Made by a program: the position numbers and the translations under genes
From: a virus
Lineage: Duplodnaviria; Heunggongvirae; Uroviricota; Caudoviricetes
DNA length: 61,063 nt
IMG/VR virus record: IMGVR_UViG_3300005264_000029
Span: 64,001 to 125,063 of that record
Reading direction: 5' to 3' (one strand)
Shown: positions 16,361-38,060 of the stretch, one piece after another
How the letters are laid out: each line of letters starts with the position of its first letter
How positions within the stretch are numbered: the first letter of the stretch is position 1
The notes under the pieces: model-generated
What the model saw: the letters and a program-made list of their open reading frames with translations, nothing else
Told to the model about the DNA's origin: nothing
The model's database searches: none

Positions 16361-17629
16361 TTATATATTTAGTTTAACTGGGTGTAACCATCGATTACAT
16401 AAGTAATCTACCCCTATCCCATTACATAATGTATTAATATTAAATTTTGGGATTACTTTTCTAATTATATTATACGAACCATTTGTGTCTGCGTTAATCT
16501 TGATGTTATTTTTAGACCTATACATTCCTCGTTTAATTCGTTTACCACTAAATCCATATTTAGTTTTAGGTGAGTGTTTATCTGGAAGTGTATCGTTATC
16601 TATAAATGAACATTTAGATGTGTAACTCTCGTTAGTTATTGATAATTTAATATTATGGTTCTCAAGCTTATACTCTAATTTCTTCATAAGCTGACCTAAC
16701 GAAATGTTTACGAAATTCTGATTGTTTCTTTTACCAATATTAATATTAGTAAGTGATTTACTTACATCACCAACGATTACTTTGGAGATATTATTCTCCA
16801 CGCACTTATTAGTAATTAGTCTACTTGTTTTATGTAGTAAATCATTCATTTGTTTATTACGTTTATCTGTAATCCTTTGTAATCTTTTACTCCAATGTCT
16901 ATCGTTTCTCTTTTTTAATATTGTTTTAGCTTTAGACATTTGTTTATTGTAAAATTGGTTTACCGACTTTAAAGCTTTACCATTAATATTGAAAGGTGTA
17001 ATTGTATTACTTGTACATGCAGCAATATTATTCAATCCTAAATCAATACCTAAAACATTATCATTCTTTTCAATTTGTTTATATTCTACTTCATCTTCAT
17101 ATACAAATACAGCTTCAAAATAATCATATCTTGGTATCACTTCAATTTGTTTAATTCTTCTATTCCTAATTTGTTTAGGGATATTAATAAGTAATCCTTT
17201 TTCTAATTGTGCTTGAGTATCCTTAATTTGAAACCTCTGGTAATCATATATTAAATTATGATGTATTACATCTTCTTTCAAATACTTAGGAGGTTCTGGT
17301 TTATTTAAGTATTTCTCAGGATGAATTTTCCAATCCTTTATAGCTTTATAGAATGATATCCAATTAGTATCTAGTTGTTTAATGATTTTCTGAGATACTC
17401 CAGCTTTAAGTAATTCAAAATTAATAGTGTTATCTAAGTTCTTCCTTTCCTTGATACTTGAATATAATGAATCGTAGCCTAAATGAGAACTTGTATATCT
17501 ATGATATTGTTTAATTAAATAATTTGCTTGATTATACAAATTCTTAGATATTGAAGTTAAATAGTATAATCTAGAAATATTAATTTTTGATAAATTCCTA
17601 ATTTTTACTTTAAAACTTCTGTTACTCAT
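16361..17629 (-). mobile_element. tnpB: TnpB (IS200/IS605 family, IS1341-like RNA-guided endonuclease) without TnpA
   Basis: GIDLGLNN, NESYTSKCSF.D, NADTNG..NI, and the 3' GGGATAGGGG..GTTACACCCAG tail typical of this clade. Confidence 0.9.
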
Positions 17630-17684
17630 TTTCTATAATATTATAAATACTTAGTTGTTTATAAATATATGTTTATCACTTAAT

Positions 17685-29986: not shown

Positions 29987-31032
29987 ATCAATCTAAAATT
30001 TTTTTCGATAGAATAACAGCAAGTAAAGGAAGAGGATATCATTGTTTAAATACTGTTACTAATGGATTCTTTTCAAAAAATACATTTGTTAAAAAATTTG
30101 ATAAGTTTGAGAAATATATAAATTCAAACAAACATCAGAATTGCTATATTAATTATATGCCTCTTAGATTTGACACATCACGTAAAACTGATAATGTACA
30201 TAAAATAAATGTTGTAGCCCTAGATATAGAATTAGTAAATAAGTCTAGACCTGAGACAGAAATTAATATATCTATAATGAAATCATATATAAATTTATTT
30301 TTAGAGAAGAGAAAAATAAGAGATTATATGCTTGTAAATTCCGGGAATGGATATCACTTATATATTTTTTTTAAAAGAGCAAAACCATTAAATGAAACCA
30401 TTTTAGATAAACATAAAATGGCATATAAAAATTTAGTTAAACATATTTCAAATGATATATCAAATATATCTGAGGGATTCCTTAATTCAGATGACAGAAA
30501 AGATTTAGCGGGGATACTTAGAATACCTGGTACAACAAATACGAAAGCTGGCAGAACAGTAACACTTGAGGAAAATATGTGTAAGGGTAATAATGACCAT
30601 ATTTCAAAAATATTTAATAGTTATTTATCTAAAGCTAAGAAGCAATTATTATTTTCAGCTAAATATGTAATTAAACAAAGTAAAAATATTAATCAGAATG
30701 GACTTCCTAAAGATATTCCTACATTACTTAAGTCACCGTTAATGAGAATGCGTATGGATAAAGATCTTCCAGCACCAAAAGAAAATCTTTGGCATAGTAC
30801 AGTGGTGTTTGCACTCCAAGCATTAATATATCATTCAGGTTTTTCCAATCATCCAGATATGCCAGCAATTTCAAATGAGTATAATCAAATTTGTAATTGC
30901 TCAGTAGATTTAGGAAGTTGTTCTTATACAAAAGATTTAGCAATGCCAATATTTGCAGCACTTAAATTTTGTAAAAGTAATAACTATGATGCTTACACTA
31001 AAGAAATAAAAGAATTATATCTTAACCAATAG
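29983..31032 (+). CDS. AEP-superfamily (RepB-like) primase
   Basis: VALDIE, NSGNGYHLY, AGILRIPGTTN. Confidence 0.8.
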   Translation: MNQSKIFFDRITASKGRGYHCLNTVTNGFFSKNTFVKKFDKFEKYINSNKHQNCYINYMPLRFDTSRKTDNVHKINVVALDIELVNKSRPETEINISIMKSYINLFLEKRKIRDYMLVNSGNGYHLYIFFKRAKPLNETILDKHKMAYKNLVKHISNDISNISEGFLNSDDRKDLAGILRIPGTTNTKAGRTVTLEENMCKGNNDHISKIFNSYLSKAKKQLLFSAKYVIKQSKNINQNGLPKDIPTLLKSPLMRMRMDKDLPAPKENLWHSTVVFALQALIYHSGFSNHPDMPAISNEYNQICNCSVDLGSCSYTKDLAMPIFAALKFCKSNNYDAYTKEIKELYLNQ

Positions 31033-31065
31033 GTTTATAAAGCATTAACTGTTTATAATATTAAG

Positions 31066-31380
31066 ATGGTAAGGTGTCCGCAATGCGATGGGAAAACAAC
31101 AGTTAGAGATTCAAGATATAAAACATTAAACAATAGTATATTTCGAAGAAGAGAGTGTTTGAAATGTTTTAATAGATTTAATACTGATGAGATAGTTCCT
31201 GATGAAAAGGATAAAAATTCATTAATAGAAATGAAAATTGAAATAATCGATTTAAAAGAAAGAATAGAAAACATTAATGCTGAAAATAAAAATATGGTTG
31301 AGGAATTAAAACAATATAAGTTTAATACACCAATAGTATTTGAAAGACCTAAATTAAGAGGTAGAAGGAATGTCGAATAA
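31066..31380 (+). CDS. NrdR-like Zn-ribbon protein with coiled-coil tail (no ATP cone)
   Basis: CPQC...VRDSR...RRRECLKC..RF.T.E. Confidence 0.75.
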   Translation: MVRCPQCDGKTTVRDSRYKTLNNSIFRRRECLKCFNRFNTDEIVPDEKDKNSLIEMKIEIIDLKERIENINAENKNMVEELKQYKFNTPIVFERPKLRGRRNVE

Positions 31381-31453
31381 ACAATTTTTCTAAGTAATAA
31401 ATACTTAAGTTTATAAACTAATAACTATTTATATATAATATATGGTTGATAAA

Positions 31454-31697
31454 GTCAATCACCCATTATAAATAATGGGCTCGAGAAGTGATTCTTGAGA
31501 GTAATTAGTTGATTAGAGAGTTGATTAAACAACAGAAGTTAGGAAAGAGAAATACATACACACCCTGTGATGCTTCACAAGTCCCCTGCTCTGTGACCAA
31601 GTCTTTAAACAAAGAGGAAACTCTTAGTGAGCTAGGTTTAAAAACCTTTCCTAACAATCTCGATGTGAACCTACGGTCCAGTATGACTGAACGAAAC
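31454..31697 (+). ncRNA. HEARO / IscB-type omegaRNA scaffold followed by only the first about 8 codons of an IscB-like gene
   Basis: GTCAATCACCC..GGGCT 5' hairpin, GTTGATTAG, ACACACCC..GATGCTTCACAAGT..GCTCTGTG, TAAACA, AAACC..TAACAATCTCGATGTGAACC, then ATG AGT GTA TTC GTT GTT AAC (MSVFVVN). Confidence 0.75.
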
Positions 31698-31791
31698 ATG
31701 AGTGTATTCGTTGTTAACTTACAAAACACAATCATAAAATTATATACCTCAATCGAAGAGAACAATATGTTCAAATAACAACAATATAAAA

Positions 31792-31986
31792 ATGGAATTA
31801 AAAGACAAAATGAAAACTATTGGTATTAAAGCCAGCATTAAGGATGACAAATTAATTGACATCAGAGCTAAACAACAAGGATTATCTAAATCTGAATTGT
31901 ATAGAAAAATAATCGATGATTATTTTAAAGCAAAACCGCTATCAGATGCTGAGAAGGCATTAATTAATATGATGCCAAATGATTGA
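31792..31986 (+). CDS. ribbon-helix-helix (CopG-like) regulator
   Basis: KTIGIKAS...AKQQGLSKSELYRKIIDDYF. Confidence 0.75.
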   Translation: MELKDKMKTIGIKASIKDDKLIDIRAKQQGLSKSELYRKIIDDYFKAKPLSDAEKALINMMPND

Positions 31987-33016
31987 TTCTAATCTAGAAT
32001 TGAATCTTACTAGAATATACTCATGGATATTTTTGATTGCTGCATTGGTGATATCTGTAATTGTTGCATACAAAGATAATGTGCCAGAATTACACGTTAC
32101 TACAGCAGCAATAATTGTAACTATGACTTTGATTTTTGGAATACATTTACATTTGAAGTTTTTAGCATTATCTCAGAAATAAAATAAAATGATTGATATA
32201 TCAACAATTTTATTTTTTATAGCGTTTCTTATTTTTGTATTTATTATAGTTGCTTCTAGGTGTACTGTAGGATTTTGTCCGAGTGCAAATCAAGGTGTAA
32301 TTATGAGGGAGTAGTTCACAATAATGCTTACAGTAGGAATATATAAAGTAGTTAATGAGGAAATAAAATTCAATAATATTATTGAATTTCCTGATGGAAC
32401 TACTATGACTGAGGAAACAACACGTGAACATTTAACATGTTTAGATGGTGTCTATAATACAATGTATTATTATAATCAAACGCAACATATTCCAATGAAC
32501 CAATCTATTCATTTGAAACTATCAGAGTTGTGTTACAATATTATTTATAATCATTATACGTTTGGAGATCAAATAGAATACATAAAAAATATTACAAAAT
32601 GAAAAAAATATTAATATTAGGATTATTATTAGTGACATTATTTATTGGATGTGCTAATACAGAAGAAGAAAAAAGTTCCCCATATGTAGAAGAAGAATGT
32701 AAAGATATGGATGGAGAGAGAGATTTATGTTATGCAACATGTGGTCCTAAGGATTATGATTGTGTAGATACATGTGATTCACAATTTAATAATATTACTG
32801 ACAGTTCAGGAAATTATTGTCAATAAAATGAAGTTATGTATAATAGGATCGGGAATAGGAATGGTTTTATTAGTTTGTATAACATTAATAAGAAATGAAT
32901 TGAATGTAATCATAAATGAAGAATTATTCATGATTACATTCACGGGGTTTTTATTTTTATTTTTATTTTCAATAATATTATGGTTAAACGACACATTCAC
33001 ATCTGATAGATTATAG
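31979..33016 (+). other. short membrane/secreted ORFs (31979-32182, 32324-32602, 32599-32826 Cys-rich lipoprotein-like, about 32826-33016)
   Basis: ORF track; TM segments; LFIG/C lipobox in 32599. Confidence 0.6.
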
Positions 33017-33215
33017 AGTTATATTATATCATCAAAACAAATATGTAAATAGAAAAAAAACTTATGTAAAATGATATCCTTATAAAATCAGTGTAATACG
33101 AAAAAACACATTACTTGGTCTCAATAAATGTTTCTACGAAACATTTATAAAGGTTTAATCATTTATACTTTATAGGTTGAAACATCTAACCTACCGAAAT
33201 ACCGAAATAACAAAA

Positions 33216-33815
33216 ATGGGAAATATCTTTAATGAAATCGCTGGACAATCAGATGTCCAAACAAGTGAAACTACAGCTCCAGTAGCTGATAATAATTCTA
33301 CAGAACAACAACCTGTATCAGATGAAATTAATTTTGATAATTTATCTAATGTGGCTGTTGGACAGCAAAAGAAATATGTTAGACCAGATCTTGGTGGAAA
33401 AACCGTAAAGATCAAATCAGCTAAATTATTTAATGCTAATAAAGAAACCGATGAACTTATTACTGGAATGACTAATAAAGAAACTAAATATTATAAGACA
33501 TCATTTCTAGTAACATTTGATACACAAAATGCCGATGGTGTTGATGATAGAGAATATATGAGTGGAGTAATCCAATACTTACAAAAAGATGGATCTATCT
33601 CAGCTCCTAATATTTGGTATGAAGGATCAAGATCTCAAGCATCAGCCCTTTGGGTTGCAGTAGCTAAAGTAAAAGGTGTGGAACCAAAAGAATTATCACC
33701 TAGAGCGTTCATGAATTATTTGAATTCAGAACCATCAGCAAAAATTGAAAATGTAGAAATTGATTTTCAAGGTAAAATCACAAAGAAAAATGTGGTTAAA
33801 GAGTTTATTAAATAA
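33216..33815 (+). CDS. hypothetical protein, possibly ssDNA-binding; probable start ATG 33216
   Basis: acidic/low-complexity N-terminus, beta-rich core, placed before the nuclease-helicase; function is a guess. Confidence 0.5.
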   Translation: MGNIFNEIAGQSDVQTSETTAPVADNNSTEQQPVSDEINFDNLSNVAVGQQKKYVRPDLGGKTVKIKSAKLFNANKETDELITGMTNKETKYYKTSFLVTFDTQNADGVDDREYMSGVIQYLQKDGSISAPNIWYEGSRSQASALWVAVAKVKGVEPKELSPRAFMNYLNSEPSAKIENVEIDFQGKITKKNVVKEFIK

Positions 33816-34730: not shown

Positions 34731-37700
34731 ATGCTTAAATTAAGTTTCTCACAAATAAAATTATATAAAAGTTATCCTCTGGATTATTTTTATAGATATG
34801 TACAAAGGCTTCCTGAAAAAGATACTGAAACAAAGTGGTGCGACTTTGGACTTGGTGTACATGAAGTATTAGAGGATTATTATTCTGGAAAAAATAACGA
34901 TTATAGATCTAATACTATTAAAGCATATGACAAGTATAAGTTAAAAGGAAGAATGAAGTTAGAGGACTTCAAGAAAAATATTCTAAATGGTATAAAACTT
35001 GCATGGAAGACAACAGATCTAGAAGAAGAAATGTTTGTCGATGTATATGATGATGTTGGGTTTGTTGGATACATAGATGTACTCGATAAAGAAAAACATA
35101 CTATCCTTGATTGGAAAACTGGAACATACACAAAGGATAAAGAAGATGATTATAAATCTCAATTATTATGTTACGCTTGGATGTATCATAGGAAATATAA
35201 TATTGTACCTAGTGAGTGTTGTTTGTATTTTACAAAACAATCAAAGCTTATTCCATTTACATTTACACTTGAACAAATTAATCAGTTTGAGAACTATGTA
35301 AAAAAGATTGCGCAGGAAATTAAGTACAAGAGAATTAATCATACGAAAGCAGAGCAGTGGGGACATGAATTAGGATTCTTTTCTGGTTATCATTACTTGG
35401 AGAACCTTCCGACATTAAAGTTCCTAATAGAGATCAGAAACAGCTTCTGTTATTTGGGGGGATCTACATCGCCTTTATTATTACAAGGCTTGAAAAAGAA
35501 TTTCGCTGTAGACCACCAATCAAAATTCTTTATGCAAAAGAAAGTACTTGAGCGATATGGTAAAACAAAATTCTATGATGACATAGGTACAGTATATTTA
35601 TTTAATGAACGTCAGAAAAAATTCCCACTTGGAATGCTTAATGATGTAAAACAACAGTTAAAGGAATATGCAGAATATAAGAATTCAAAACATGAAGTAA
35701 CAGTTGTTGATCTAAGGGATAAAAAGATTCTTAATAAAAAATTAGGAATTATGCCAAACAAATTACAAGGTGGAATAGTTCTTCGTGATTATCAATTGAA
35801 TGCAGTATATGCATTTATAGTTAATCAAGGAATAGGAACGCTTGAGATTGGTACAGGTGGAGGTAAAAGTTTTCTGACAGCTGAAGTAATTAGAAGATTA
35901 GATACTCCAACATTATGGATTATTAATCAGAAAGAATTATTATATCAAACAAAAGAAGCATTTGAAAAATCACTTGGAATCCCTATTGGAGTTATTGGTG
36001 ATTCAAAAATAGATTTTCAAAATGTAACAGTTGCTACAGTTCAAACACTTGCAAAAAAAGTAAAGGATATGAATAGTGAAATGCTTGCATATCTTGCAGG
36101 AATTAATTTAGTAGTGATAGATGAGTGTTTATATGGAAATACAAAAATTCGTATGGGTGATGGTACTGAAAAAACTATTAAAGAAATATATGAATGTAAA
36201 GAAGAACAATATGTAATGTCATATAATGAAGATAAACAAATATTCGAAAGTAAAAAAGTTATTCGTAAAATGAAAAATAGTATGAATGATAAATGGCATA
36301 GTTTTAAAGTTAAAGACGAACTTGGAGACGAACATAAAATAATAGTTACAGATAATCATAAAATATGGACATCTGACGGATATAAGCAAGTAAAAGATTT
36401 AAATAGTAATGATATACTAAAGGTTTATTTAGAACCTATAAAATTTAAATGTAAATATTGTGATAAATTTTTTACTGGTAAACCATATAGTAAACATATA
36501 TTAATTCATAAAAACCCAGAAGCATGTTCTAATGGTGGAAAGGCTGCAACAAAAATATTAAAAGAAAAATTAAAAAATAAAAAATTTCATAAAAAATATT
36601 GTGCCAGTATAAAAAAAGGAATTTCTGTAGCTCAAAAAAGTGAGCATTATTGGGAAGCATATAAAAAAATGGGAGAGGGACGTAGAGGTAAAAATAATCC
36701 AATTTTTAATAGTCCTGAAACAATACTAAATATGATTAAAACAAAACAAAAACAATTTGCAGCAAAAACATTTGATGAACAACAAAAACAAATAAAAAGA
36801 TTTATGAATTCACCTGGTGGACAATGTAAAGGACCTACAAAATGTGAGAAAATTATCATGGATATGAAGATTGATAATCTAGAATATACAGGTAACGGAA
36901 GGAAAATTTATAAATTTAATAATTGGAAAGGTGATGTAAAGAAAAGAAAATTTAAAGTTCCTGATTTTAAAGTTAAAAATGAAGAAAAAGTAATAGAAGT
37001 TGGAGATTTTGAATACTGGCATAATAAAAAAGAAACAAATGAAGTTATAAAAAATTATGAAAATATAGGAGTTAAATGTTTGTATTTAGATGAAAAAGAA
37101 ATATTTAACGATTATGAATTATCGAAAAAAAAAATAGAGAAATTCTGTTATAATCATACTGCAAGATTAATTAAGAAGCAAAAACAAAATGGATTTATAG
37201 ATAAAGAAATAGCTAAATATAAATATAATATAGAAGTTGAAGATAATCATAATTATATAGCAAATAAGATATTAGTATCAAATTGTCATAATTCTTCATG
37301 TACTACATATGAAGAAGTATTTAAAGCATTATCAAATACTAAGTATAGATTAGGAACTACTGCAACAGCTTTTCGTGAAGACAAACAAGAACGAAGAATG
37401 TATGCACTTACTGGATCTATAGTATGTAAAATAGATTCTGAAGAATTAATTAAAAAAGGATTTCTTATGAAACCCATAATTAAGTTTTTTAAGGTTAAAG
37501 AATCTAATGTTACTAAAATTAACTATGCATTACTATCTACTGAAGAAAGACATTCAGCAAAGGATAGTGAATATGCTAGAGAATATGAAGAAGGTATAGT
37601 ATATAATCCTGAGAGGAATGAATTCATAAAAGAGTTTGTTGGAAAGGAAGTTAATTCAAAGATATTAATAATTGTTAAATCTATTGAACATGGAGAATTA

Positions 37701-38060
37701 CTTAATATGAATATTGAGGATAGTTTATTTATTCATGGTAGTTTGAACAAAAAAGTTAGAAAGGAATATTTTGATATACTTAAATCACCAAAACCATGTG
37801 TTGTTATTGCAACAATTAAGATTGCATCAGAAGGACTTGATGTACCAGATTTAAATATATTAATTAATGCTGCAGCTAATAAATCTGATAATAGAACAGT
37901 TCAAGCACTTGGTAGAATACTTAGAAAACATGAATCTAAGACTCAGGCCACATACATAGATTTTATAGATAAATCAAATCACGGAGCTCAACATAGTTGG
38001 CAAAGGGTAAAAGCTTTTAAAGCTCAAGGACATAAGGTAAGTATCATAGATATCAAATGA
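34731..38060 (+). CDS. PD-(D/E)XK (Cas4/RecB-like) nuclease fused to an SF2 helicase; 386-aa intein (36126-37283) with C2H2 finger and Vsr/DUF559-like nuclease
   Basis: LSFSQ, GLGVHEVLE, GYIDVLD, ILDWKTG, QLLCYA; LRDYQ, GTGGGKS, VIDE/[CLYG..VSN]/CH, GTTAT, EGLDVP, QALGRILR. Confidence 0.9.
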   Translation: MLKLSFSQIKLYKSYPLDYFYRYVQRLPEKDTETKWCDFGLGVHEVLEDYYSGKNNDYRSNTIKAYDKYKLKGRMKLEDFKKNILNGIKLAWKTTDLEEEMFVDVYDDVGFVGYIDVLDKEKHTILDWKTGTYTKDKEDDYKSQLLCYAWMYHRKYNIVPSECCLYFTKQSKLIPFTFTLEQINQFENYVKKIAQEIKYKRINHTKAEQWGHELGFFSGYHYLENLPTLKFLIEIRNSFCYLGGSTSPLLLQGLKKNFAVDHQSKFFMQKKVLERYGKTKFYDDIGTVYLFNERQKKFPLGMLNDVKQQLKEYAEYKNSKHEVTVVDLRDKKILNKKLGIMPNKLQGGIVLRDYQLNAVYAFIVNQGIGTLEIGTGGGKSFLTAEVIRRLDTPTLWIINQKELLYQTKEAFEKSLGIPIGVIGDSKIDFQNVTVATVQTLAKKVKDMNSEMLAYLAGINLVVIDECLYGNTKIRMGDGTEKTIKEIYECKEEQYVMSYNEDKQIFESKKVIRKMKNSMNDKWHSFKVKDELGDEHKIIVTDNHKIWTSDGYKQVKDLNSNDILKVYLEPIKFKCKYCDKFFTGKPYSKHILIHKNPEACSNGGKAATKILKEKLKNKKFHKKYCASIKKGISVAQKSEHYWEAYKKMGEGRRGKNNPIFNSPETILNMIKTKQKQFAAKTFDEQQKQIKRFMNSPGGQCKGPTKCEKIIMDMKIDNLEYTGNGRKIYKFNNWKGDVKKRKFKVPDFKVKNEEKVIEVGDFEYWHNKKETNEVIKNYENIGVKCLYLDEKEIFNDYELSKKKIEKFCYNHTARLIKKQKQNGFIDKEIAKYKYNIEVEDNHNYIANKILVSNCHNSSCTTYEEVFKALSNTKYRLGTTATAFREDKQERRMYALTGSIVCKIDSEELIKKGFLMKPIIKFFKVKESNVTKINYALLSTEERHSAKDSEYAREYEEGIVYNPERNEFIKEFVGKEVNSKILIIVKSIEHGELLNMNIEDSLFIHGSLNKKVRKEYFDILKSPKPCVVIATIKIASEGLDVPDLNILINAAANKSDNRTVQALGRILRKHESKTQATYIDFIDKSNHGAQHSWQRVKAFKAQGHKVSIIDIK

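What the first reader, a model, noticed from the sequence alone, without database searches (positions are those of the whole stretch)
31441..31778. Orphan IscB-type omegaRNA behind a viral promoter, with IscB deleted
Seen: a HEARO-like scaffold from 31454, a strong promoter about 40 nt upstream, and an IscB-like start (MSVFVVN) that breaks off before the PLMP motif. Established: IscB omegaRNAs carry the guide 5' of the scaffold, and stand-alone omegaRNAs can act in trans. Inference: the guide would be about ATATGGTTGATAAA; I found no match to it elsewhere in this window. The RNA may load an IscB encoded elsewhere or by the host, or be a retained remnant.
Basis: partly seen in the sequence, partly recalled or inferred. 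Interest (0 to 1): 0.7.

Follow-up and report, generated by a model that had tools for sequence, protein, structure and literature searches.

The report
Nuclease-less IscB guide RNA in virus
A 125-kb uncultivated, probably archaeal virus carries the complete guide-RNA gene of an IscB transposon (a Cas9 ancestor) directly behind one of its own promoters, but the nuclease gene has been cut away after eight codons. This is a clean example of an already described kind of "orphan" guide RNA, most likely a transposon remnant.

Summary
Rfam's HEARO model (the IscB omegaRNA) matches 31454-31674 (+) full length at 111.4 bits (cut-off 83). Two further conserved hairpins and the first eight IscB codons (ATG 31698, MSVFVVNL) follow. 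Homology to the closest intact element (L168, 84.5% over 284 nt) stops at 31722. The virus record (125,063 bp, 87-bp terminal repeats) has no IscB, no TnpA and no second transposon end.

The promoter is real-looking. TTTATAAA lies 29-36 nt before the ATG of 15 ORFs in this genome (control 8-mers: 0-3), the pattern of an archaeal TATA box with leaderless mRNA. The same box lies at 31410 with an ATG at +32. So the element sits four codons into a leaderless viral gene, and the transcript should start 12-14 nt before the scaffold.

The scaffold is undecayed: 66 of 70 consensus pairs are kept, against 62-68 in IscB-linked relatives. It is absent from the four related virus loci examined.

Best reading: a degenerate IscB insertion, still transcribed, and usable only if a matching IscB comes in trans. 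Standalone omegaRNAs are already published. This scan noted a similar orphan in another genome (e1-5110994). Expression could not be tested.

The parts
31385..31389 (+). T5 tract 5 nt after the stop codon (31378-31380) of the upstream NrdR-type zinc-ribbon gene. It is a likely archaeal-type terminator, so read-through into the locus is probably limited.
   Evidence: Sequence read directly. The terminator role is inferred.
31410..31417 (+). TTTATAAA, the virus's canonical TATA-type promoter box, 44 nt before the scaffold.
   Evidence: 15 of 86 exact sites have an ATG (ORF of 40 aa or more) at +28 to +37, against 0-3 for control 8-mers. Here the ATG is at +32. Searches show the shared cassette sequence at many gene starts.
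31440..31453 (+). Predicted 5' end of the transcript and guide segment (12-14 nt). It contains ATG 31442 and four codons (MVDK) of the interrupted leaderless gene.
   Evidence: The TATA-to-ATG spacing is calibrated on this genome. The element boundary at 31454 comes from identical scaffolds in different flanks. The segment is unique in the genome. The transcription start is inferred, not measured.
31454..31674 (+). HEARO / IscB omegaRNA scaffold, full length.
   Evidence: RF02033 at 111.4 bits, positions 1-211 of 211. 66 of 70 consensus pairs are canonical, against 62-68 in IscB-linked relatives. Folding z-score is -4.1.
31462..31479 (+). Subterminal hairpin of the transposon end (arms CCCATTAT and ATAATGGG). 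It is also the first hairpin of the omegaRNA.
   Evidence: inverted repeat I14. In L026 a near-copy of this hairpin recurs after the IscB stop, as the other transposon end. No second copy exists in this virus.
31675..31712 (+). Two hairpins 3' of the Rfam model. In the second, AACGAA 31690-31695 pairs with TTCGTT 31707-31712, and its loop holds the IscB start codon.
   Evidence: The alignment shows both-sided changes in this stem in L017, L023, L004 and L016 that keep the pairing.
31698..31721 (+). First eight codons of IscB (MSVFVVNL).
   Evidence: Aligns to the IscB N-termini of L168 (TSVFVINL) and L026 (LRVFVINL). tblastn with IscB proteins finds only this piece in the whole virus.
31722..31723 (.). 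Deletion junction: homology to intact IscB elements ends here.
   Evidence: The blastn match to L168 ends at 31722. Local alignment of 31723-31800 to the rest of L168 iscB scores no better than shuffles. No hairpin of the other-end type follows.
31723..31778 (+). Tail of unknown origin, up to the stop of the residual 26-codon frame. It may be the 3' end of the interrupted viral gene.
   Evidence: ORF list. No similarity to IscB elements. The origin is inferred.
31792..31986 (+). First gene of the downstream small-gene operon (ribbon-helix-helix, weak NikA-like match), probably transcribed through the omegaRNA.
   Evidence: Pfam match below threshold. The next canonical promoter box on this strand is at 33144. 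Co-transcription is inferred.

Best explanation
This is the degenerate stage of an IscB-type IS200/IS605-family insertion in a virus genome.

An IscB element, with its omegaRNA at the transposon end and iscB behind it, inserted 12 nt into a leaderless viral gene, directly behind that gene's TATA-box promoter. A later deletion removed iscB from codon 9 onward, together with the other transposon end. The 269 nt that remain (31454-31722) are the end hairpin, the complete omegaRNA scaffold, its two 3' hairpins and eight IscB codons.

The interrupted gene's promoter is intact, and the next promoter box lies 1.7 kb downstream. The RNA is therefore most likely still made, as the 5' part of the mRNA for the following small-gene operon, and it begins with a 12-14-nt guide.

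The virus has no IscB and no TnpA. On its own the RNA can neither cut DNA nor move. It could guide cleavage only if an IscB of the same subfamily were supplied by the host or a co-infecting relative. Its target would then be the uninterrupted allele of the same site.

I judge that it is not maintained for a function of its own.

Shown: identity, boundaries, absence of IscB, TnpA and the second end, intact structure, and promoter family membership. Inferred: transcription start, co-transcription, order of events, and lack of selection.
For: - The HEARO match is full length at 111.4 bits and is the only copy in the record.
- The virus has no RRXRR or guided_IscB match. tblastn with five related IscB proteins finds only the 20-aa N-terminal piece. 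There is no Y1 transposase.
- No second end hairpin exists in the whole genome.
- Homology to the closest intact element, L168, runs 31452-31722 at 84.5% and then ends.
- Four loci from related viruses (50-56% identical primase-helicase) carry no HEARO. The insert is therefore lineage-specific and lies in a variable small-gene region.
- Two of seven metagenomic members of the same HEARO subfamily are likewise nuclease-less, each with a different breakpoint. L013 keeps one end only. L017 keeps both ends. Loss of iscB with the scaffold left behind is thus a recurrent outcome.
- ATG 31442 sits at the canonical +32, which shows that an existing gene start was hit.
- The published background fits: standalone omegaRNAs exist and work in trans (PMC10691335, citing Altae-Tran 2021), and PATE-type elements carry omegaRNAs (bioRxiv 10.1101/2023.03.14.532601).
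Against: - The scaffold shows no decay at all. It keeps 66 of 70 pairs, and its bit score is higher than that of some IscB-linked copies (L006 at 79.4, L008 at 95.5). This fits either a recent deletion or continued selection.
- By my rough estimate, a random insertion would land within about 20 nt after a transcription start under 1% of the time. The placement therefore looks favoured, although selection acting on the transposon while it was intact would explain it.
- Intact IscB elements of the same subfamily occur on virus-like contigs with similar replication genes (L169, L026, L168). A trans supplier is therefore plausible.
- The time since the deletion is unknown.
Confidence: 0.6

Rival explanations
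1. A retained, selected trans-acting guide RNA. The virus keeps a nuclease-free omegaRNA gene behind its own promoter and borrows IscB from the host or from co-infecting relatives. The complex cuts genomes that carry the uninterrupted allele (guide match plus TAM). This either excludes competitors or drives the locus into them by repair.
For: - The scaffold is fully intact.
- A canonical viral promoter is placed so that the primary transcript starts with a 12-14-nt guide and needs no 5' processing.
- No run of four or more T lies inside 31454-31722.
- Same-subfamily IscB elements occur on related virus-like contigs.
- Standalone omegaRNAs have been shown to work in trans (PMC10691335).
Against: - The insert is not found in the four related viruses examined.
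- The guide is not chosen but fixed by the insertion site.
- 12-14 nt is shorter than the roughly 16-nt guides used with characterised IscB (my recollection, not tested here).
- The predicted fold pairs the guide's 3' half (31443-31450) with the first scaffold strand (31454-31461), which would occlude it.
- The host, and any host IscB, are unknown.
Confidence: 0.2
2. A co-opted RNA with a role other than guiding. It could be a structured 5' leader that stabilises or regulates the downstream operon mRNA. It could instead be a decoy that soaks up IscB made by invading elements, by analogy with phage RNA anti-CRISPRs built from solitary repeats.
For: - It now lies between the only promoter box and the operon at 31792-33016.
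- It is a very stable fold (z = -4.1).
- The guide is partly self-paired in the predicted minimum-energy structure.
Against: - There is no conservation in relatives.
- The arrangement is fully explained by insertion plus deletion.
- No precedent for an omegaRNA decoy turned up in the papers I read (PMC10691335, bioRxiv 10.1101/2023.03.14.532601, PMC13565253, PMC9755519).
Confidence: 0.07
3. An assembly chimera: a HEARO-bearing fragment from another organism in the sediment was joined into the viral contig.
For: - Other HEARO relatives are present in the same samples, seen as short unrelated contigs overlapping 31533-31566 and 31686-31728.
- The GC content of the scaffold (38%) is above that of the virus (27.7%).
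Against: - One 6.3-kb contig of run X1 covers 30000-33500 without a single difference. It may be the source assembly, so it is not independent.
- Both junctions make biological sense: an exact element end at 31454 after a canonical promoter plus ATG, and the break inside the iscB codons.
- Higher GC is expected for a structured RNA of foreign origin.
Confidence: 0.03

Closest known systems
HEARO RNA (Rfam RF02033), the omegaRNA of IscB OMEGA systems in IS200/IS605-family (ISC) elements, e.g. OgeuIscB
   Same: The covariance-model match is full length and above the curated cut-off. The guide side is 5' of the scaffold, outside the element end. A subterminal hairpin is present. The iscB start codon lies about 25 nt after the model end, inside a conserved hairpin.
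   Different: iscB is reduced to eight codons. The other transposon end is missing. No IscB or TnpA exists in the same replicon.
Standalone omegaRNAs of Altae-Tran et al. 2021 (as summarised in PMC10691335) and omegaRNA-bearing PATE elements (bioRxiv 10.1101/2023.03.14.532601)
   Same: An omegaRNA scaffold with its own flank-derived guide and no adjacent effector. L017, found here, is exactly this type: it keeps both ends and has lost the nuclease.
   Different: The published cases are 'evidently mobilized' copies, in genomes that also hold effector-containing loci. Here only one end is left, so it is not mobilisable. The replicon is a virus without any IscB. The RNA sits behind a viral TATA-box promoter.
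Virus-borne IscB/HEARO systems (Goltsman et al. 2022, PMC9755519: over 16% of HEARO-nuclease contigs were viral or prophage-derived)
   Same: The same family occurs on viral genomes. IMG/VR contigs L003/L007, L004/L002, L005/L008 and L006 carry HEARO plus IscB.
   Different: Those contigs keep the nuclease. This one does not.
Degenerate stage of the homing-endonuclease cycle (invasion, decay, loss), and OMEGA 'transposon homing' as reviewed in PMC13565253
   Same: This is a selfish nuclease element in a viral genome whose nuclease has been lost, while the disrupted target site stays immune to re-cutting.
   Different: Target recognition here is RNA-guided, and the part that survives is the guide RNA itself. 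The cycle framing is my inference.

Membership tests
HEARO / IscB omegaRNA (RF02033) | Covariance-model score at or above the curated gathering score, over the whole model | tested here: met
   111.4 bits against 83, positions 1-211 of 211, E = 3.8e-22.
HEARO / IscB omegaRNA (RF02033) | Consensus helices kept as base pairs | tested here: met
   66 of 70 RNAalifold consensus pairs are canonical. Ten relatives give 62-68.
HEARO / IscB omegaRNA (RF02033) | Lies directly upstream of, and on the same strand as, an IscB (RRXRR + HNH) ORF | tested here: not met
   Only eight homologous codons remain. Relatives L026, L027 and L008 have RRXRR + HNH proteins.
HEARO / IscB omegaRNA (RF02033) | The scaffold starts exactly at a transposon end, so the guide is flanking DNA | tested here: met
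   Identical or 99% identical scaffolds in different flanks all diverge at the G of GTCAAT (L013 against L026, L017 against L027). The same word starts at 31454.
HEARO / IscB omegaRNA (RF02033) | The RNA is expressed and bound by IscB | not testable with these tools
   No RNA sequencing run holds the stretch. The host is unknown.
Standalone (trans-acting) omegaRNA, in the sense of Altae-Tran 2021 | A compatible effector is encoded elsewhere in the same genome | tested here: not met
   No IscB in the 125-kb virus. The host genome is not available.
Standalone (trans-acting) omegaRNA, in the sense of Altae-Tran 2021 | Evidently mobilised copy (both transposon ends present) | tested here: not met
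   There is no second end hairpin after the junction or anywhere in the genome. L017 does meet this feature.
PATE / miniature IS200-IS605 derivative | Short non-coding element bounded by both IS200/IS605-type ends | tested here: not met
   Same result as the previous row: one end only.
Archaeal-type promoter with leaderless mRNA (context of the RNA) | A TATA box about 26-30 nt before the transcript start, with the start codon at or next to the 5' end | tested here: inconclusive
   The spacing statistics fit: TTTATAAA lies 29-36 nt before 15 ATG starts, against 0-3 for controls. No transcription start has been mapped, and the host domain is not proven.

The most novel reading that the evidence does not exclude
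The virus keeps a nuclease-free guide-RNA gene under its own promoter and uses IscB made by the host or by co-infecting relatives. The complex would cut the uninterrupted allele in competing viruses, either to exclude them or to drive the locus into them. Alternatively, the RNA would act as a decoy that titrates such IscB. This would be the OMEGA counterpart of virus-borne mini-CRISPR arrays and RNA anti-CRISPRs.
Probability: 0.15. Interest if true: 0.75.

Novelty: new member of a known kind. Interest (0 to 1): 0.35.

Why it matters
Orphan omegaRNAs are documented, but their biological role is explicitly unknown (PMC10691335). This copy has three unusual features. It lies on a virus that has no IscB at all. 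It is structurally perfect. By accident of insertion, it sits where a viral promoter should produce a transcript that begins with the guide.

If it were shown to be used, it would mean that viruses can carry guide RNAs alone and parasitise other elements' nucleases. If it is only a remnant, it is a tidy snapshot of how IscB elements decay in viral genomes. It also provides a natural, promoter-defined omegaRNA with a short guide that could be tested with the related IscB proteins found here.

The promoter calibration (TTTATAAA about 30 nt before ATG, leaderless) is also useful for annotating this virus group.

Tried and rejected
- **Expression.** No RNA holder is listed for the stretch, so expression could not be tested. 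Laying contigs of three DNA runs from one marine-sediment study gave one identical spanning contig, possibly the source assembly. The rest were only short pieces from other organisms, with no informative joints.
- **Guide targets.** The guide-side flank has no second copy of 10 nt or more in the virus. None encodes a relative of the neighbouring genes, and none extends the match by more than 7 nt, so these are chance matches in AT-rich DNA.
- **Empty-site relatives.** Single-protein scans with the 349-aa and 934-aa neighbours found nothing. The phage GenBank collection has no DNA match. Four relatives reached through the primase-helicase family share no detectable small genes around the site, so no empty site could be aligned.
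- **Second transposon end.** Nothing was found by blastn against the ends of L008, L026, L027 and L168, nor by hairpin and pattern searches.
- **Closer intact copy in IMG/VR.** A scan with the iscB-start hairpin word found none.
- **Host clue.** The subfamily 18-mer gave only chance matches, with no HEARO, in the GTDB species genomes. Named relatives of the closest IscB proteins are a mix of bacteria and archaea, including CPR, Phycisphaerae, Thermoplasmata and Thorarchaeota, so no host could be named.
- **Generic sigma-70 scan.** It is not significant on its own. I rejected 'bacterial -35/-10 promoter' in favour of the TATA-box reading, because the tight spacing is to the first box, not the second.
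- **Further iscB remnants.** Decayed iscB beyond 31722 was rejected by a shuffle test.

Full report
**What is there.** The window is the second half of a 125,063-bp IMG/VR virus record. The record has 87-bp direct terminal repeats and 27.7% G+C. Rfam's HEARO model (RF02033), which is the omegaRNA of IscB, matches 31454-31674 on the + strand. The match covers all 211 model positions at 111.4 bits (gathering score 83, E = 3.8e-22). It is the only copy in the record.

I aligned the scaffold with ten relatives and folded the alignment with RNAalifold. The window's copy keeps 66 of 70 consensus pairs as canonical pairs. The relatives give 62-68. Its bit score exceeds that of several copies that still have their nuclease: L006 at 79.4 and L008/L005 at 95.5. 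The RNA from 31438 to 31715 folds with a z-score of -4.1 against shuffles. The scaffold is therefore real and shows no decay.

**What follows the scaffold.** Two more hairpins follow the Rfam model, at 31675-31688 and 31690-31712. In relatives the second one changes on both sides of the stem while keeping the pairing: AACGAA/TTCGTT here, ACAGG/CCTGT in L017, ACACA/TGTGT in L023. Its loop contains the iscB start codon.

The frame starting at ATG 31698 reads MSVFVVNL. This aligns with the N-termini of true IscB proteins, TSVFVINL in L168 and LRVFVINL in L026. Those proteins carry the RRXRR and HNH domains. The closest intact element, L168, is 84.5% identical over 284 nt, covering window 31452-31722, and then diverges. 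Local alignment of 31723-31800 against the rest of its iscB scores no better than shuffled sequence.

**What is missing.**
- The whole virus record has no match to Pfam RRXRR or NCBIfam guided_IscB.
- tblastn with five related IscB proteins finds only the 20-residue N-terminal piece at this locus.
- There is no Y1 transposase.
- In the intact relatives, a near-copy of the first scaffold hairpin, or another end hairpin, recurs just after the iscB stop, as expected for the two ends of an IS200/IS605-type element (L026 and L027). No such second hairpin exists after the junction or anywhere else in this genome.

The piece is thus one transposon end, plus the omegaRNA, plus eight codons. It is 269 nt long and cannot move.

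**Where the element begins.** L013 and L026 share an identical scaffold. L017 and L027 share a 99% identical one. Their upstream DNA is unrelated right up to the G of GTCAAT. That fixes the element end, and hence the start of the guide-side flank, at 31454. [quoted passage not shown] It also means that a guide match elsewhere is not expected. The guide is simply the insertion flank, and its natural target is the uninterrupted site.

**The promoter.** The generic sigma-70 scan is not significant (8 sites found, 8.7 expected), but the virus has its own recurrent promoter cassette. There are 86 exact TTTATAAA sites on both strands. Fifteen have an ATG opening an ORF of at least 40 aa at +28 to +37, with modes at +30 and +32. 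Four control 8-mers of the same composition give 0, 1, 2 and 3.

The tight spacing is to this first box and not to the TATAAT-like second box, which lies 0-7 nt from the ATG. That is the geometry of an archaeal TATA box with leaderless mRNA. It fits earlier notes from this scan that the virus is probably archaeal.

The same box lies at 31410-31417, and an ATG lies at +32 (31442: ATG GTT GAT AAA, then GTCAAT of the element). The upstream gene, an NrdR-type zinc ribbon with its own box at 31034, ends at 31380 and is followed by a T5 tract at 31385-31389.

So the IscB element landed four codons into a leaderless viral gene. The transcript should begin at about 31440-31442, 12-14 nt before the scaffold. 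The next canonical box on this strand is at 33144. The small-gene operon starting at 31792 is therefore probably now transcribed through the omegaRNA. All of this is inferred from spacing. No transcription start has been measured.

**Conservation.** Homologues of the neighbouring primase-helicase (50-56% identity) are numerous. Four loci from such relatives, 53 kb in all, have no HEARO, and their downstream small genes are not detectably related. The insert is lineage-specific and lies in a variable region.

Intact IscB elements of the same HEARO subfamily sit on AT-rich, virus-like contigs with similar replication genes: L169 (97 kb, in a PD-(D/E)XK, helicase and PolB module), L026 and L168. 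Viral carriage of HEARO nucleases is already published (PMC9755519).

Seven metagenomic members of the subfamily were found with one 18-mer. Two of them are also nuclease-less:
- L013 breaks inside the start-codon hairpin and has one end only.
- L017 breaks after VFK, keeps the other end hairpin (96.7% over 30 nt to L027's), and is thus a PATE-like mini-element.

Loss of iscB with the scaffold left behind is therefore recurrent, and the breakpoints differ each time.

**Interpretation.** The simplest history is insertion into the 5' end of a leaderless gene, followed by a deletion. That deletion removed iscB, the other end and probably most of the interrupted gene. What is left is still transcribed, because it lies between a promoter and an operon the virus needs.

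Without IscB or TnpA the RNA can do nothing alone. With an IscB of the same subfamily supplied in trans, it could direct cleavage of the uninterrupted allele. Published work shows that standalone omegaRNAs can work in trans, and also that their role is unknown (PMC10691335).

Points that keep the functional reading alive:
- The scaffold is perfect.
- The placement is ideal. By my rough estimate, a random insertion would fall within about 20 nt after a transcription start under 1% of the time.
- Potential IscB donors exist among related viruses.

Points against it:
- The RNA is absent from the four relatives examined.
- The guide is fixed by the insertion site and short.
- The predicted fold pairs the guide's 3' half (31443-31450) with the first scaffold strand (31454-31461).
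- The placement could have been selected while the element was still intact, since an IscB element needs outside transcription to make its guide.

My estimates are about 0.6 for a remnant without a function of its own, 0.2 for a retained trans-acting guide, under 0.1 for another co-opted role, and a few per cent for an assembly artefact.

**Comparison with what is known.** The RNA is a member of the HEARO/omegaRNA family by sequence and structure. It fails the family's contextual feature of an adjacent IscB. It also fails two features of published standalone omegaRNAs: a compatible effector in the same genome, and evidence of mobilisation. It works like, or once worked like, an IscB omegaRNA. 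What is new is only the setting: a probably archaeal virus with no IscB, and a canonical viral promoter in front. This scan has already recorded a similar orphan in another genome and judged it ordinary (e1-5110994). I file this one as a new member of a known kind, of modest interest.

**Limits.** No RNA data exist for this virus. The host is unknown. The closest IscB proteins with names come from both bacteria and archaea, and the subfamily word is absent from GTDB species genomes. The only spanning contig may be the source assembly. CheckV rates the record 73% complete despite its terminal repeats, so an IscB on a missing part cannot be strictly excluded.

Noticed in passing
whole genome G000; examples in the window at 31034, 31410, 33144, 43257 (+) and 10992, 8515, 2806 (-): There is a recurrent promoter cassette: TTTATAAA, a partly palindromic core (ACTTAAGT), then a TATATAAT-like box. 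The ATG lies 29-36 nt after the first T of TTTATAAA, which is archaeal TATA-box and leaderless-mRNA geometry. Fifteen exact cases were found, against 0-3 for control words.
   Followed up: partly
window 16361-17632 (-) and G000:C1:14073-15341 (+): There are two TnpB-type (Cas12f1-like_TNB) ORFs of about 422 aa, 61% identical to each other. Each sits directly behind a canonical promoter box (ATG at +36 and +31). The virus has no TnpA. It therefore carries three IS200/IS605-family relics or passengers.
   Followed up: partly
window 31443-31461: The guide-side flank TGGTTGAT is a 7-of-8 copy of the scaffold's own P1 3' strand (TAGTTGAT, 31506-31513). In the predicted minimum-energy fold it pairs with GTCAATCA at the scaffold start as an 8-bp hairpin with a 3-nt loop. 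This would occlude both the guide and P1. My rough estimate of the chance probability is about 0.3%. It is unexplained.
   Followed up: partly
L017:2533-2890: This is a nuclease-less mini-element in an AT-rich virus-like contig. Its scaffold is 99% identical to L027's, iscB is cut after VFK, a terminator-like hairpin with a T run follows, and then comes the other end hairpin (96.7% over 30 nt to L027's). It is a PATE-like, presumably mobilisable, omegaRNA-only element.
   Followed up: partly
L013:1014-1270: This is another orphan. Its scaffold is 100% identical to that of the IscB-bearing L026. Its flanks are unrelated, and it diverges inside the start-codon hairpin. No second end lies in the 400 nt available.
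   Followed up: partly
window 31509-31778 (+), and the same frame in all relatives: One reading frame stays open through the 3' two-thirds of the scaffold and runs into iscB in every relative, so called proteins of 445-474 aa include about 60 extra N-terminal residues. The frame is open here too (89 codons). Earlier notes of this scan (e1-3169084, e1-3412160) suggest that this stretch is translated as well as folded. I did not test that.
   Followed up: no
window 31066-31380 (+): This 104-aa protein has an NrdR-type N-terminal zinc ribbon (Pfam PF22811, E = 3.8e-10) but no ATP-cone. It is followed by a coiled-coil-like tail and has its own promoter box at 31034.
   Followed up: no
window 34731-38060 (+): This 1109-aa protein fuses a PD-(D/E)XK nuclease domain to an SF2 (ResIII/XPB-type) helicase. 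The helicase is interrupted by an intein (Intein_splicing, residues 475-851). In the relative L169 the nuclease and the helicase are separate genes without an intein.
   Followed up: no
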